DNA from: a virus
Lineage: Duplodnaviria > Caudoviricetes
Virus record (IMG/VR): IMGVR_UViG_3300015615_000196
Coordinates: 256,001 to 320,000 of that record
DNA length: 64,000 nt
Strand: one strand, 5' to 3'
In this document: one piece after another, positions 35,920-43,292 of the stretch
How the letters are laid out: every line of letters begins with the position of its first letter
Position numbering within the stretch: position 1 is the stretch's first letter
Made by a program: the position numbers and the translations under genes
The notes under the pieces: generated by a model
What the model was told of the DNA's origin: nothing
The model's input: the letters and a program-made list of their open reading frames with translations, nothing else
The model's database searches: none

Positions 35920-36156
35920 ATGAAGGACATAAAGGAATGCCTCAAATCAACCAGTCTTGACGAGATTAAAAGAGAGATTGATGAACGTAAGGATTTACGT
36001 GCGCAAATGGTAGGACAATTGTATCCTGCAATGTTGACTGATGAAATCAGTCAGTTAACATCGCACTATACTGCCGTTTATCGTTTCGTAAAACACAACA
36101 TGGATCACATCCGAAAACAAGAAGAAGAATGGAAACCTACCCAACCGCCAATGTAA
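35920..36156 (+). CDS. Hypothetical protein
   Basis: ORF. Confidence 0.55.
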   Translation: MKDIKECLKSTSLDEIKREIDERKDLRAQMVGQLYPAMLTDEISQLTSHYTAVYRFVKHNMDHIRKQEEEWKPTQPPM

Positions 36157-37235
36157 ATGCAGACTTGATTGCACCACAAATTGTGTCGGTAGAAAACCGT
36201 CCGTTGGATGCAACTATTGAAATTGTGCATGGTGTTGAGAAACATCCGAATGCAGACAAACTTGATCTTTGCATGATCTTGGGTTTCAAGTGTGTGACCA
36301 AACGTGATCAATTCAAAGACGGTGACAAGGTGATTTACGTTCGCCCGGATACGGTATTTCCGTTGGCTGATTGGGCAGCAGAGTATCGTAAGTATTCACC
36401 AAAGAGAATCAAAGCAATTCGTCTTCGTGGAGTATTCAGCGAAGGCGTAATCATTCCATTCGATGCAGTGCCAGAAGACGTGCGTAATCTCATTGTCAAC
36501 TTTGCAGTGGGAGATACCGTTGCCGAAATTCTTGGCATCACGCACTACCAAGAACCTGAACCACAGGATCAATCTGCAAAAGGTGGTCTGCCTCTTGGCA
36601 TTCCGAAAACCGATGAAGAACGTTTTGAAGGTATGAAGTATCTTCCGTTCGGAGAGGTCGTTGATCTTCAATTGAAGATTGATGGTCAGTCATGCTCGTA
36701 CTACTACAACTACGAAACCAAAGTCTTTGGTATTCTTGGTCGTAGTCTGGAATTGAAGTACAAGGTGGTTGACGAAAACGGAATCGAAAGCATTGCCAAC
36801 AACAAGTATGTCGAGAACATTCCGATCTACGACATCGAAAATAAATTACGTGACTTCTGTGAGAAGGAACAAATTTCACTTTGTATCCGAGGTGAATCTT
36901 ATGGTCAAGGTTTACAGGGACATGAAATCAATCCTCATGCGAAAGCAAACAAGGGTTGGGCGATGTTCTCCGTATTCTTGATCACCGAGCATGTGTACGC
37001 TGAAAAGGGTCACAAGTATTACTTTAAGAATGTGGCGCAAGCTACAGGGCTTCCTATTGCCCCAATGATCGAAGAAGATGTAGAGTTAACACCTGAATTG
37101 GTGAAACACTATTCCGAAGAAATTGAAAAGCTGAACTACAATGGCATTCAAGCGTTACCGTTTGAAGGTGTTGTGGTAAAGACAAAAGCCGGATCATTCA
37201 AGATCATCAATAAGTACTACGATGCAAACAAGTAA
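36129..37235 (+). CDS. ATP-dependent RNA ligase, DRB0094/Rnl5 type (N-terminal OB domain)
   Basis: HPNADKL OB domain, LRGVFSEG, KTDEER, KIDGQS adenylylation motif, RGE, EGVVVK, FKIIN. Confidence 0.9.
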   Translation: METYPTANVNADLIAPQIVSVENRPLDATIEIVHGVEKHPNADKLDLCMILGFKCVTKRDQFKDGDKVIYVRPDTVFPLADWAAEYRKYSPKRIKAIRLRGVFSEGVIIPFDAVPEDVRNLIVNFAVGDTVAEILGITHYQEPEPQDQSAKGGLPLGIPKTDEERFEGMKYLPFGEVVDLQLKIDGQSCSYYYNYETKVFGILGRSLELKYKVVDENGIESIANNKYVENIPIYDIENKLRDFCEKEQISLCIRGESYGQGLQGHEINPHAKANKGWAMFSVFLITEHVYAEKGHKYYFKNVAQATGLPIAPMIEEDVELTPELVKHYSEEIEKLNYNGIQALPFEGVVVKTKAGSFKIINKYYDANK

Positions 37236-38012
37236 ATGAAAGGTCAACTTACATTTCAGAACTACAAGTCTTACACGAAAGAAGATCAAAAGACTTGGGG
37301 TGCTCTTTTCGAACGTCAGGTGGATAACCTGAAAAAAGACAACAAGGTTGTCGAAGAGTTTTGGGAAGGTGTCAATAAGTTGAAAATCAAAAGAGGTGAA
37401 ATACCCAATTTTGAAAACGTCAACAAGATACTCAAGCCACTGAACAATTTTGAGATCATGGGTGTGACTGGTTTGCTGGATGATCAAATCTTCTTCCAGC
37501 TAATCAAGAATCGCAAGTTCCCGGTGACCACTTGGATTCGCAAACCTCACCAGATCGACTATATTGAAGAACCGGATATGTTTCATGACTTGCTCGGTCA
37601 CGTACCGTTCCTTGCTCATAAATCGTATACGGACTTACTGGTTGAACTTGCCGATGCTGCCTTACTTTCGTTCCAGAGAAACGACAAAGTGTTTCAGGAT
37701 GCGTTTGTGCGCTTTTACTGGTACAGTGTTGAGTTCGGTCTTCTCCTGAACAAAGAAGGAAAGCACCAGATTTACGGAGCAGGGATTCTTTCATCGTTCT
37801 CGGAGACAAACAAAGTGTTTGAAGCAGAGAGTGTGAAGAAGGATTTCAGCTACGACATTTTGAAGGAAGACTTCGATAAGCAGCACCTTCAAAATTTCTA
37901 CGCTGTGCTTTGTGGTCAGGACGGAGGCATTGGCTTTGCAAGTGGAATTGAGCGACTACGGGAATGGGTCGTTTATGTAAACGATCAACAACACGGGAGG
38001 CACAATCCATGA
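37236..38012 (+). CDS. phhA: Phenylalanine 4-monooxygenase (biopterin-dependent aromatic amino acid hydroxylase)
   Basis: YIEEPDMFHDLLGHVPFL (two Fe His), WYSVEFGL (Fe Glu), YGAGILSS. Confidence 0.9.
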   Translation: MKGQLTFQNYKSYTKEDQKTWGALFERQVDNLKKDNKVVEEFWEGVNKLKIKRGEIPNFENVNKILKPLNNFEIMGVTGLLDDQIFFQLIKNRKFPVTTWIRKPHQIDYIEEPDMFHDLLGHVPFLAHKSYTDLLVELADAALLSFQRNDKVFQDAFVRFYWYSVEFGLLLNKEGKHQIYGAGILSSFSETNKVFEAESVKKDFSYDILKEDFDKQHLQNFYAVLCGQDGGIGFASGIERLREWVVYVNDQQHGRHNP

Positions 38013-41490: not shown

Positions 41491-41709
41491 CTACGTAATA
41501 ATAGCAATTCCTTTTTTAATTTCAAAATTCGAACAGTAGCCTTTCATCACGAATCGTGGTTGGCGTTTGCTGATGTGTCCGTAAGTCGGTACACCACATA
41601 CTACGTTATCAACAATGTGACAGGTCTTGTTGTAGTGTACCGAAATCTTGCAACGTCCTGCGCTTTGGGATGCAGGTTTATTGAAGTGAAAGAAGAATGC
41701 TTTTTTCAT
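41491..41709 (-). CDS. Hypothetical protein
   Basis: FFFHFNKPAS...QPRFVMKG; TAG stop. Confidence 0.6.
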   Translation of the reverse strand: MKKAFFFHFNKPASQSAGRCKISVHYNKTCHIVDNVVCGVPTYGHISKRQPRFVMKGYCSNFEIKKGIAIIT

Positions 41710-42209
41710 ACGAGTGCGAGATCGGCCTTGACCTTTTTCAATTGGTCTTCAAGGTCTTTCTTCTTTGCATTGAGAACTTTTTTCTGAATGGTCTTCTCAT
41801 TGAATTTCTCGGCATGGAGACGACCATTGAGAACTTGCTTTTCAATCTCGTTGAATGCTGAGATCGTAGTGTTCTCTACGTTGGTCTTCTTTTCAATTGC
41901 ATTGTAGTCGTAGAAGTCCCATTCCAATTTGATCGGAATCAAAACTGATCCACGATCAGTCTGATATGGCTTTCCACCGTTGAGCGTAAATGCGTTCAAC
42001 TTGAAGTATGCTTCTTCACCCTTTGCATTCAAACGCTTGAACCATTTCTGTTGCATGACGAATGAGTTCAACGAGTCGTTGACATACTTGATGATGAATT
42101 CAGGTGACTTTCTCAACGATGTGAGAATGACACGTCTTTCTTTATCCAATGCTCCGAGGCGTTGGCAAAGTTTTTCGTATTCTGAACTTTTTGTTGCGCG
42201 AGTTGCCAT
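41706..42209 (-). CDS. Hypothetical protein
   Basis: ORF after ECF-like promoter at 42230-42254. Confidence 0.6.
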   Translation of the reverse strand: MATRATKSSEYEKLCQRLGALDKERRVILTSLRKSPEFIIKYVNDSLNSFVMQQKWFKRLNAKGEEAYFKLNAFTLNGGKPYQTDRGSVLIPIKLEWDFYDYNAIEKKTNVENTTISAFNEIEKQVLNGRLHAEKFNEKTIQKKVLNAKKKDLEDQLKKVKADLALV

Positions 42210-42229: not shown

Positions 42230-42254
42230 TGTACGTAAAATTACGAAAAAGGTT
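42230..42254 (-). promoter_or_regulatory. ECF-sigma-like promoter
   Basis: AACCTTTTTCGTAATTTTACGTACA. Confidence 0.7.
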
Positions 42255-42260
42255 GGAAGA

Positions 42261-42540
42261 AAGTAGCAGGAATGTGGCGGCTTATGAACAGTCGCATTGC
42301 TTTTCGTGGCATTTCGGACATCCCGAAGTAATGGGTTAATAGTCCTCATGTTCTCCACTGTGGTTATATCACCACATTCCCCCTTACGTTATCCTTGTCC
42401 CTGTTAAGACAGGTGAGCCATTGCTGGCAAGTTCCCTTATCGGTTTGCTACAGTCCTGTGGTGTGCAAGAGCACGTTTCAGGGCGTGGGATGAAAAATTC
42501 GCCCTACAGTGTCAGTGGATTGTCTACCAATCCTCTACCT
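42261..42540 (-). ncRNA. ~280-nt highly structured RNA of unknown class
   Basis: Closing AGGTAG/CTACTT; hairpins GGATTG/CAATCC, AGGGCG/CGCCCT, GTGC/GCAC, GCCA-GCAA-TGGC, CCTGT/ACAGG and TTCGG/CCGAA; long-range GGAATGTGG/CCACATTCC. Confidence 0.6.
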
Positions 42541-42550
42541 ATTTTTCAAG

Positions 42551-42621
42551 TGGATACTGGATGATTCGAACATCCGTTAACCCCCTCAATGGGGCCGTTC
42601 TAACCGCTAAACTAAGTACCC
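42551..42621 (-). tRNA. Atypical tRNA with 6-nt anticodon loop (ATTGAG; possibly degenerate Gln-TTG)
   Basis: GGGTACT/AGTATCC acceptor, GTTT/GAAC D-stem, GCCCC/GGGGT anticodon stem, GGATG-TTCGAAT-CATCC T-arm. Confidence 0.7.
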
Positions 42622-42626
42622 GTTTT

Positions 42627-42795
42627 CGGGAAGGTTCGGAGTTCCACACGAACCTCTCCATACCTAATTCTGAATGTCGTGTGCGCTTCACAGCTACTCC
42701 CCTTGGATTAATGGTTTTCGATGGCCAATGGCTCCCCGCACAACGAGTACAAAACTTCAAACGGTATGGCGCATTCATACTATGCTACCTTTCCC
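42627..42795 (-). ncRNA. tRNA-shaped RNA with ~98-nt insert replacing the anticodon loop
   Basis: GGGAAAGG/CCTTCCC acceptor, GCAT/ATGC D-stem, CCATACC/GGTATGG stem, degenerate T-arm TTCG(T)G-TGGAACT-CCGAA. Confidence 0.65.
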
Positions 42796-42797
42796 TG

Positions 42798-42865
42798 ACA
42801 CAACTTCACGCACTGCGTAACCAATGCATCATGGCCGATTTACGTCAACCACTTCGAAGTTATGT
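42798..42865 (-). ncRNA. 68-nt three-way-junction RNA with complementary loops
   Basis: P1 ACATAACTTCG/TGAAGTTGTGT; P2 GTGGTTGA/TCGGCCAT, loop CGTAAA; P3 TGCATTG/CAGTGCG, loop GTTACG. Confidence 0.7.
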
Positions 42866-42868
42866 TTG

Positions 42869-42980
42869 TGGGAAGGGATGGACTTGAACCACCAACCTCT
42901 CAGCTTTGCGATCTGTAAAGATGCATACCATTGCATTTGATTTCCGCATCACTGAGTTCTCTAACTTGAGATACCTTCCC
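42869..42980 (-). ncRNA. tRNA-shaped RNA with 48-nt anticodon-loop insert (intron-like)
   Basis: GGGAAGG/CCTTCCC acceptor, TCTC/GAGA D-stem, CTCAG/CTGAG anticodon stem, GGTGG-TTCAAGT-CCATC T-arm. Confidence 0.75.
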
Positions 42981-42983
42981 ATT

Positions 42984-43095
42984 TCAGGAGCGTCATGCGG
43001 TCATTGATTGTGTGGAGGCTTTAGCCTAATTTCGATGCATGAACACCTCACCACTAAAACATTTCTGCGTTTCAATCAACAACCCTTTCTCCTGA
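42984..43095 (-). ncRNA. ~112-nt structured RNA
   Basis: TCAGGAG/CTCCTGA closing stem, TTGTTGATTG/CAATCAATGA stem, AGGC-TAAA-GCCT hairpin. Confidence 0.55.
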
Positions 43096-43103
43096 CCTTT
43101 TAT

Positions 43104-43209
43104 ACTGCTAAACATCACCGATGTGTTCATTCCATAACAGATACTGTTGCTCGATCAAAGACTTGGTTTAGTGCCAAAATTGCTCGACAGTACTCGATGT
43201 CTGTACAGT
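43104..43209 (-). ncRNA. ~106-nt structured RNA
   Basis: ACTGT/GCAGT, GTACTGT/ACAGTAT, TTTGG-CACTAAA-CCAAG, ACATC-GGT-GATGT. Confidence 0.45.
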
Positions 43210-43220
43210 TGGATTTCTTG

Positions 43221-43292
43221 CGCGGATACCCGGATTCGAACCGAGGTCAAGGGATTTAGAGTCCCCTGTTCTGACCACTAAACTATATCCAC
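43221..43292 (-). tRNA. Amber suppressor tRNA (anticodon CTA)
   Basis: GTGGATA/TATCCGC acceptor, GTTT/GAAC D-stem, GGGGA-CTCTAAA-TCCCT anticodon arm, CTCGG-TTCGAAT-CCGGG T-arm, G73. Confidence 0.92.

What the first reader, a model, noticed from the sequence alone, without database searches (positions are those of the whole stretch)
42261..42540. ~280-nt ornate RNA with multibranch loops and candidate pseudoknots
Seen: closing AGGTAG/CTACTT; two nested junctions (CTGT/ACAG enclosing two hairpins; CTTG/CAAG enclosing a GCAA tetraloop hairpin and CCTGT/ACAGG); alternative pairings of GGAATGTGG with local ACCACA or distal CCACATTCC (possible switch); possible loop-loop pairs CATC(CC)/(GG)GATG and GAACA/TGTTC. 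It lacks the RNase P, tmRNA, SRP and group I/II signatures I can recall. Established: large ornate RNAs (GOLLD, ROOL) occur beside phage tRNAs. Inference: this may be a relative of those or a new class, possibly a ribozyme.
Basis: partly seen in the sequence, partly recalled or inferred. Interest (0 to 1): 0.7.

Follow-up and report, generated by a model that had tools for sequence, protein, structure and literature searches.

The report
New structured RNA in jumbo phages
Inside the flagged stretch is a real, conserved, folded RNA gene of about 190 letters that matches no catalogued RNA family and recurs in the tRNA gene clusters of giant bacterial viruses; its job is untested, most likely binding a host or viral partner.

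Summary
The window is from a 362.6-kb circular jumbo phage, probably of Bacteroidota. The flagged 280 nt is not one RNA. Its 3' part (42451-42263, minus strand, 189 nt) is a real structured RNA gene. I found 21 distinct members (about 135-220 nt, 43-90% identical), single-copy and mostly in phage tRNA/ncRNA clusters. Covariation is strong: 23 of 38 pairs show double changes and 0/500 shuffles match. Three loci held out of the model scored 132-186 bits. The fold is a three-way junction with an irregular arm carrying two near-invariant internal loops, a fixed-length helix, and freely variable tips. The 5' ~85 nt is a decayed neighbouring mini-RNA plus a small leader hairpin. It is not GOLLD (this phage's own GOLLD lies elsewhere), ROOL, RNase P, T-box, cobalamin riboswitch or hairpin ribozyme. 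There is no Rfam hit and I found no paper. Best guess (about 0.4): a trans-acting stable RNA whose invariant core binds a protein or RNP as a decoy or scaffold. Ribozyme activity is untested (about 0.12). The scan's index showed this RNA only on this same DNA.

The parts
42263..42451 (-). Core RNA gene, 189 nt from P1 to P1. New family with 21 members, single copy in the genome.
   Evidence: Model R1 scores it 148 bits; covariation; held-out loci.
42447..42451 (-). P1 5' strand; pairs with 42263-42267. This is the true closing helix.
   Evidence: 6 of 6 pairs have double-sided changes across homologs; it is also in the MFE of the 280-mer.
42432..42446 (-). 5' strand of the irregular P2 arm (near-invariant GAUA and GGAA). 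Position 42436 pairs with 42388.
   Evidence: That pair is G-C in 15, U-A in 4 and A-U in 2 of 21 members, with 4 independent changes; it ranks in the top 2 of 946 and of 8001 column pairs.
42394..42431 (-). Its insert is 3-59 nt in homologs.
   Evidence: The base pairs C-G and U-A/C-G hold in 21/21; tip lengths.
42382..42393 (-). 3' strand of the irregular P2 arm (near-invariant GUAA).
   Evidence: All 7 arm pairs are 100% paired in 18 sequences.
42371..42381 (-). P3 5' strand; pairs with 42268-42278. An 11-bp helix of conserved length and variable sequence.
   Evidence: 9 of 11 pairs have double changes; the distance from P3 start to UAAC is 14-17 nt in 21/21.
42363..42366 (-). Conserved single-stranded UAAC (UAGC in two members) at the distal junction.
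42306..42358 (-). P4 (42358-42355 with 42309-42306) and a variable extension, which in this phage is an atypical replacement arm.
   Evidence: P4 is 97% paired with one compensatory change; the extension differs in the window, L023, L196 and L198.
42279..42300 (-). P5 hairpin (3 bp, 7-nt loop) and a conserved A-rich joiner ending in AAGCC.
   Evidence: P5 is paired in 14/14 (G-C or G-U only) and was found independently by RNAalifold.
42459..42486 (-). Small 5' leader module (CCUGAAAC, then a 4-bp hairpin). Optional: present in 7 of the 11 syntenic-clade loci, with a remnant in an eighth.
   Evidence: one compensatory change in L023.
42497..42541 (-). Decayed 5' half of a separate ~68-nt two-hairpin mini-RNA that is intact in L017 and L022. 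About 17 nt of its 3' half are missing here.
   Evidence: L017 and L022 fold with z = -3.35 and -5.66 and have a covarying closing stem. The deletion is inferred from comparison with L017.
42230..42254 (-). Phage promoter-like motif between the RNA and the downstream gene.
   Evidence: The motif occurs 18 times in the genome, mostly just before an ATG. Promoter function is inferred.
41706..42209 (-). Downstream 167-aa ORF of no known family; it follows the RNA only in the syntenic clade.
42550..42621 (-). Upstream tRNA-like gene with a shrunken anticodon loop (context, not part of the RNA).

Best explanation
SHOWN (about 0.95): 42451-42263 is a conserved structured non-coding RNA gene of a family absent from Rfam 15. 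It is carried as a single accessory copy, mostly in the tRNA/stable-RNA clusters of jumbo phages. P1 closes a tight three-way junction. One arm (P2) is an irregular helix with two near-invariant purine-rich internal loops (GAU/GUA and GGAA/GAHAA). The other arm (P3) is one helical turn long and ends in a junction with conserved unpaired UAAC and AAGC. Both arm tips vary freely. INFERRED: it is cut out of, or co-transcribed with, the tRNA operon as a stable RNA and acts in trans. The P2 loops dock side by side against the junction at the end of P3, and the resulting surface binds a protein or ribonucleoprotein (a host translation factor, the ribosome, or an RNA-targeting defence enzyme) as a decoy or scaffold. 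It would thus serve the same RNA-protection role as the neighbouring tRNA mimics, suppressor tRNA and RNA ligase.
For: Covariation on a sequence-only alignment: 88% of cells paired, 23/38 pairs with double changes, 0/500 shuffles, slid controls 36-44%. RNAalifold recovers P3, P4, P4a and P5 unaided. An unbiased column scan puts two Watson-Crick pairs on top. Three loci not used for the model score 132-186 bits. G-U pairs place the RNA on the tRNA strand. Flanking genes differ among clades, and a separate promoter-like motif lies between the RNA and the next ORF, which favours action in trans. Invariant bases concentrate in non-canonical loops while P3 keeps its length but not its sequence; by established knowledge this pattern marks tertiary docking and a binding surface. 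GOLLD and ROOL lie in the same context and GOLLD pulls down ribosomes (10.1101/2024.12.08.627333). A phage tRNA can neutralise the PARIS defence (PMC11464382, title only).
Against: No partner was identified. Only 3 proteins track with the RNA in 3 carrier versus 3 non-carrier genomes, no more than other 3-of-6 patterns, and they are an HNH-like, a SLOG and a patatin protein. No host RNA that it could mimic was found. An invariant non-canonical core fits a ribozyme, an aptamer or a self-assembling RNA equally well. The loop-E-like reading of GAU/GUA is from my own knowledge, not tested. In L049 the RNA sits between a promoter-like site and an ORF, as a leader would.
Confidence: 0.4

Rival explanations
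1. A protein-free self-assembling RNA, like GOLLD, ROOL or OLE: the invariant loops make contacts between molecules and build a dimer or cage.
For: Same genomic niche as GOLLD and ROOL. Invariant A-rich loops with variable tips. A possible UAAC/GUUA pairing in 13 members could be intermolecular.
Against: It is a quarter to a third the size of GOLLD or ROOL. The UAAC/GUUA pairing never covaries and is missing in the window, L023, L196 and L198. No covarying kissing-loop pair appeared in the scans.
Confidence: 0.17
2. A new ribozyme (self-cleaving or trans-cleaving) that processes the polycistronic tRNA/ncRNA transcript, with two loop-bearing arms docking across a junction as in the hairpin ribozyme.
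For: Two arms with invariant loops at matched height on a tight junction. It sits in tRNA operons, and the phage has no RNase P RNA of its own.
Against: No hit to the hairpin, RNase P or any Rfam ribozyme model. The CUGA and GAAC words resemble the hammerhead core, but the G of CUGANGA and stem II between them are missing, and covariation shows these bases paired with the other strand. Most complete relatives with large tRNA clusters lack it.
Confidence: 0.12
3. A small-molecule aptamer used in trans as a sponge, for example for an anti-phage signal nucleotide, or used in cis as a riboswitch.
For: An invariant junction core with variable tips is typical of aptamers (established knowledge). Short words resemble the cobalamin riboswitch. 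L049 has leader geometry, and a U-tract follows P1 in most members.
Against: The cobalamin model finds nothing at E<=10 in five carrier genomes while ringing in 11 controls. No shared downstream gene across clades. No conserved alternative fold.
Confidence: 0.12
4. A tRNA-elbow clamp (interdigitated double T-loop, as in RNase P, T-box leaders and the L1 stalk) that binds tRNAs or the neighbouring tRNA mimics.
For: tRNA-cluster context. Four divergent members cap P4 with a UGAAA-containing loop. The motif is portable and convergent (PMC4810234).
Against: The two conserved strands pair as an irregular helix rather than flanking a helix as free loops. No hit to the T-box model at these loci or to four RNase P RNAs. 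The 17 main-type members lack that loop on P4.
Confidence: 0.08
5. Not a functional RNA: chance folding or a conserved DNA element.
For: Single-sequence z-scores are only -1.7 to -2.2.
Against: Compensatory changes and strand-specific G-U pairs in 21 sequences down to 43% identity; held-out confirmation.
Confidence: 0.03

Closest known systems
GOLLD (RF02032) and ROOL (RF03087) RNAs
   Same: Structured RNAs of unknown function in phages, often near tRNA islands, accessory, with conserved cores and variable parts (10.1101/2024.12.08.627333).
   Different: About 190 nt rather than 550-830 nt. No model hit at this locus, and the phage has a separate GOLLD at genome 191172-191593. No covarying pseudoknot was found. 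GOLLD was present in only 1 of 5 other carrier records.
Hairpin ribozyme (RF04190)
   Same: Two helical arms with conserved internal loops on a tight junction (architectural analogy only, from my own knowledge).
   Different: No model hit; the loop sequences and junction order differ; activity is untested.
Cobalamin riboswitch (RF00174)
   Same: Shares the short words GGGAA, GUAA and AAGCC.
   Different: The words lie in a different helix order; no hit at E<=10; no shared downstream gene.
RNase P specificity domain, T-box stem I and L1 stalk (double T-loop RNAs)
   Same: Two conserved purine-rich strands flanking a variable hairpin.
   Different: Here the strands pair with each other. There is no RNase P catalytic core, and the rRNA word matches are at chance level.

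Membership tests
GOLLD | Match to the conserved 3' domain model RF02032 | tested here: not met
   hit at 191172-191593 only, none at 298263-298451 at E<=10.
GOLLD | Location near phage tRNA genes | tested here: met
GOLLD | RNA-only nanocage assembly | not testable with these tools
   Needs cryo-EM or mass photometry.
ROOL | Match to RF03087 (574 positions, several pseudoknots) | tested here: not met
   no match, but no positive control rang; searches also negative; the RNA is a third of the length.
RNase P RNA | P4 catalytic core motifs and match to RF00010 | tested here: not met
   no hit at this locus, controls ring. Model R1 does not hit four real RNase P RNAs.
T-box leader | Match to RF00230; antiterminator upstream of amino-acid genes | tested here: not met
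   no hit at the RNA loci of five carriers.
Double T-loop tRNA clamp (motif level) | Two interdigitated pentaloops | tested here: inconclusive
   Covariation favours an irregular helix; four divergent members carry a UGAAA loop on P4. 3D data are needed.
Cobalamin riboswitch | Match to RF00174 and a leader position before B12-related genes | tested here: not met
Hairpin ribozyme | Loop A / loop B consensus, match to RF04190 | tested here: not met
Hammerhead ribozyme | CUGANGA, then stem II, then GAAA | tested here: not met
   All 21 members have GAUA followed by two bases and GGAAC, with no stem between; Rfam scans negative.
Self-cleaving ribozyme (any) | Site-specific cleavage in vitro | not testable with these tools
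   Bench assay required.
tmRNA | Split tRNA-like domain plus tag ORF | tested here: not met
   ARAGORN and Rfam negative; no conserved ORF.

The most novel reading that the evidence does not exclude
A new catalytic or ligand-binding RNA class encoded by phages: either a ribozyme that processes the phage's stable-RNA operon, or a free RNA sponge that soaks up a host anti-phage signal or blocks an RNA-targeting defence enzyme.
Probability: 0.2. Interest if true: 0.9.

Novelty: new variant of a known kind. Interest (0 to 1): 0.6.

Why it matters
Why phages pack structured RNAs of unknown function among their tRNA genes is a long-standing open question. This family is small (the shortest members are about 135 nt from P1 to P1), has a covariation-defined core and natural minimal variants, so it can be tested directly by probing, cleavage assays, pull-down and cryo-EM. 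If it is a ribozyme or an RNA-based counter-defence factor, it would be a new class of functional RNA.

Tried and rejected
Rfam scans of the window and of the homolog loci: tRNAs only. blastn against GenBank phages and plasmids: nothing for this RNA. Bacterial genomes: 5 pattern hits, all chance; not found in two samples of 151 genomes of the phylum that holds a Chlorobiaceae genome (Bacteroidota in GTDB), which does not show absence. Paralogs in the own genome: none. rRNA mimicry (L1 stalk, peptidyl-transferase words): matches at chance level. Partner protein by presence/absence in 3 carriers and 3 non-carriers: not above background. Sequencing runs: no RNA holder listed, which is no evidence either way. 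The supplement of the 10,006-candidate viral RNA survey (PMC10690425) is not held, so overlap with that list is unchecked. One contig's DNA (P0011) and the P0001 record were unavailable. A note in my notebook gives the covarying position as 42435; the correct coordinate is 42436.

Full report
SETTING. The window is bases 256001-320000 of a 362,603-base virus record with direct terminal repeats. It has a T4-like major capsid gene and about 62 tRNA genes. Only 2 of 250 long ORFs have a Shine-Dalgarno word and the leaders are A-rich; by established knowledge this points to a Bacteroidota host (inference). The finding lies on the minus strand at the 3' end of a 1.1-kb stretch with no convincing ORF. 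That stretch starts with an amber-suppressor tRNA and holds two tRNA-like genes; the nearer ends 9 nt before the finding.

OBSERVATION. Thermodynamics alone is weak (z = -1.67), and 5-nt complements are expected about 31 times by chance in this length, so homologs had to decide.

HOMOLOGS. Relatives of the downstream 167-aa protein led to syntenic phage contigs, whose upstream DNA matches the finding at about 70% identity. Motif scans of viral and metagenome contigs added non-syntenic members. A covariance model built from 14 sequences scored four divergent members at 26-72 bits. It scored three syntenic loci fetched afterwards at 132-186 bits. The total is 21 distinct sequences with pairwise identity 43-90%. 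Each genome searched has one copy. The RNA is accessory: of 13 complete phages chosen by capsid similarity, one carries it. It was not found in the bacterial genomes searched.

BOUNDARIES. Homology across the family begins at about 42451, not 42540. The first 85 nt are two other things. One is the 5' half of a ~68-nt two-hairpin mini-RNA that is intact in L017 and L022 (z = -3.35 and -5.66) and has lost about 17 nt here. The other is a ~25-nt leader with a 4-bp hairpin, present in 7 of 11 syntenic loci. Whether the leader is part of the mature RNA in this clade is open.

STRUCTURE. On a sequence-only alignment 88% of cells pair, 23 of 38 pairs have double changes, none of 500 shuffles reaches this, and slid registers give 36-44%. 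RNAalifold finds P3, P4, P4a and P5 unaided. The tool warns that related sequences can beat shuffles without structure, so I also scanned all column pairs without assuming a fold. The two best of 946 pairs (21 sequences) and of 8001 pairs (17 sequences) are Watson-Crick in every sequence. One is the base of the P2 tip. The other joins 42436 to 42388 (G-C 15, U-A 4, A-U 2; at least four independent changes on the tree). That pair shows that the two most conserved strands form one irregular arm; its seven pairs are 100% paired in 18 sequences. The arm holds near-invariant GAU/GUA and GGAA/GAHAA loops. P3 follows the arm with no linker, varies in sequence, and keeps the conserved UAAC 14-17 nt from its start in all 21 members. 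The P2 tip varies from 3 to 59 nt, and the P4 tip is replaced wholesale in several members, including this phage. Four divergent members have a shorter inner domain with a UGAAA-capped P4. A UAAC/GUUA pseudoknot is possible in 13 members but never covaries and is absent here.

Supported: the distal 9-bp helix and the second junction. Not supported: the closing helix, the first junction, the switch (a hairpin this stable is unique to this phage) and both loop-loop pairs.

CONTEXT AND MODE OF ACTION. Most members lie among co-oriented tRNAs or other non-coding stretches, and most are followed by a U-run. Only the syntenic clade shares the downstream gene, and there a motif found 18 times in this genome, mostly just before start codons, separates the RNA from the gene. 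So the RNA is probably a stand-alone gene acting in trans; L049, which has leader geometry, is the exception. Invariant non-canonical loops, a length-conserved spacer helix and free tips imply a compact docked core with a conserved surface (inference). What binds or reacts there is not shown. I put about 0.4 on a protein- or RNP-binding decoy or scaffold, given neighbours that look like RNA-protection tools (tRNA mimics with altered anticodon arms, a suppressor tRNA, an RNA ligase) and the precedents of ribosome-binding GOLLD and tRNA-based counter-defence (PMC11464382). The rest is split: self-assembly 0.17, ribozyme 0.12, aptamer 0.12, tRNA clamp 0.08. A presence/absence test found no partner gene above background.

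COMPARISON WITH KNOWN FAMILIES. It is not GOLLD, whose model finds this phage's own copy elsewhere, nor ROOL, RNase P, T-box, cobalamin riboswitch, hairpin ribozyme or tmRNA. No Rfam family matches the window or the homologs. Resemblances to 23S rRNA words were at chance level. Ten literature searches found no description, but the list of 10,006 candidate viral RNAs could not be checked and the library is incomplete.

VERDICT. It is like GOLLD and ROOL in setting but a member of neither, and its function remains inferred. Interest 0.6.

Noticed in passing
window 42550-42621 (-): tRNA-like gene with a 5-6-nt anticodon loop and the alanine identity elements G3-U70 and A73. It recurs in relatives with freely varying loops, suggesting a tRNA mimic that does not decode.
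   Followed up: partly
window 42869-42980 (-): tRNA scaffold with a 47-nt insert in place of the anticodon loop. Relatives carry several such cargo tRNAs, one with a conserved insert in L017, L019, L021, L022, L023 and L024.
   Followed up: partly
window 42622-42800 (-): Another non-coding stretch conserved at about 70-72% in L019 and L023, with a terminal hairpin; no Rfam hit.
   Followed up: no
window 42985-43219 (-): Non-coding stretch right after the amber-suppressor tRNA (43220-43292). Its 5' part is conserved in the syntenic relatives; no Rfam hit.
   Followed up: no
L017:5660-5725 and L022:5705-5770 (+): A ~68-nt mini-RNA with a closing stem, a D-loop-like hairpin and a T-loop-like hairpin but no anticodon arm (z = -3.35 and -5.66). 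An exact-word search found no further copies in IMG/VR.
   Followed up: partly
L027:2390-2560 (-), L030:2200-2400 (+), L045:650-760 (-), approximate: A second conserved, uncatalogued non-coding element lies just upstream of the family RNA in these three loci.
   Followed up: no
L001:1117-1922 (genome about 190790-191593, +): This phage's GOLLD (159.8 bits for the 3' domain), followed by a tRNA-Gln-like gene and preceded by a boxA-like word; it appears to be full length, about 800 nt.
   Followed up: partly
genome-wide; window 42230-42254 (-): A two-part promoter-like motif occurs 18 times in this genome but 0-5 times in six relatives.
   Followed up: partly
window 37236-38012 (+): Phage-encoded biopterin-dependent aromatic amino acid hydroxylase (PF00351, E = 5e-33), next to an RNA ligase gene at 36129-37235.
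   Followed up: partly
genome 59159-59272 (-): A second CUA-anticodon tRNA call, with a 19-nt insert. TAG still ends 11 of 184 long ORFs, so this looks like suppression rather than recoding.
   Followed up: no
L166:675-720 (-), approximate: This member sits behind a sigma-70-type promoter (TTGACA, 18 nt, TAGTAT), hinting that the family also reaches phages of other hosts.
   Followed up: no
G157:C1:227381-227443 (-): Weak match to T-box stem I positions 26-88 (17.6 bits, E = 0.017) in a carrier phage, away from the family RNA.
   Followed up: no
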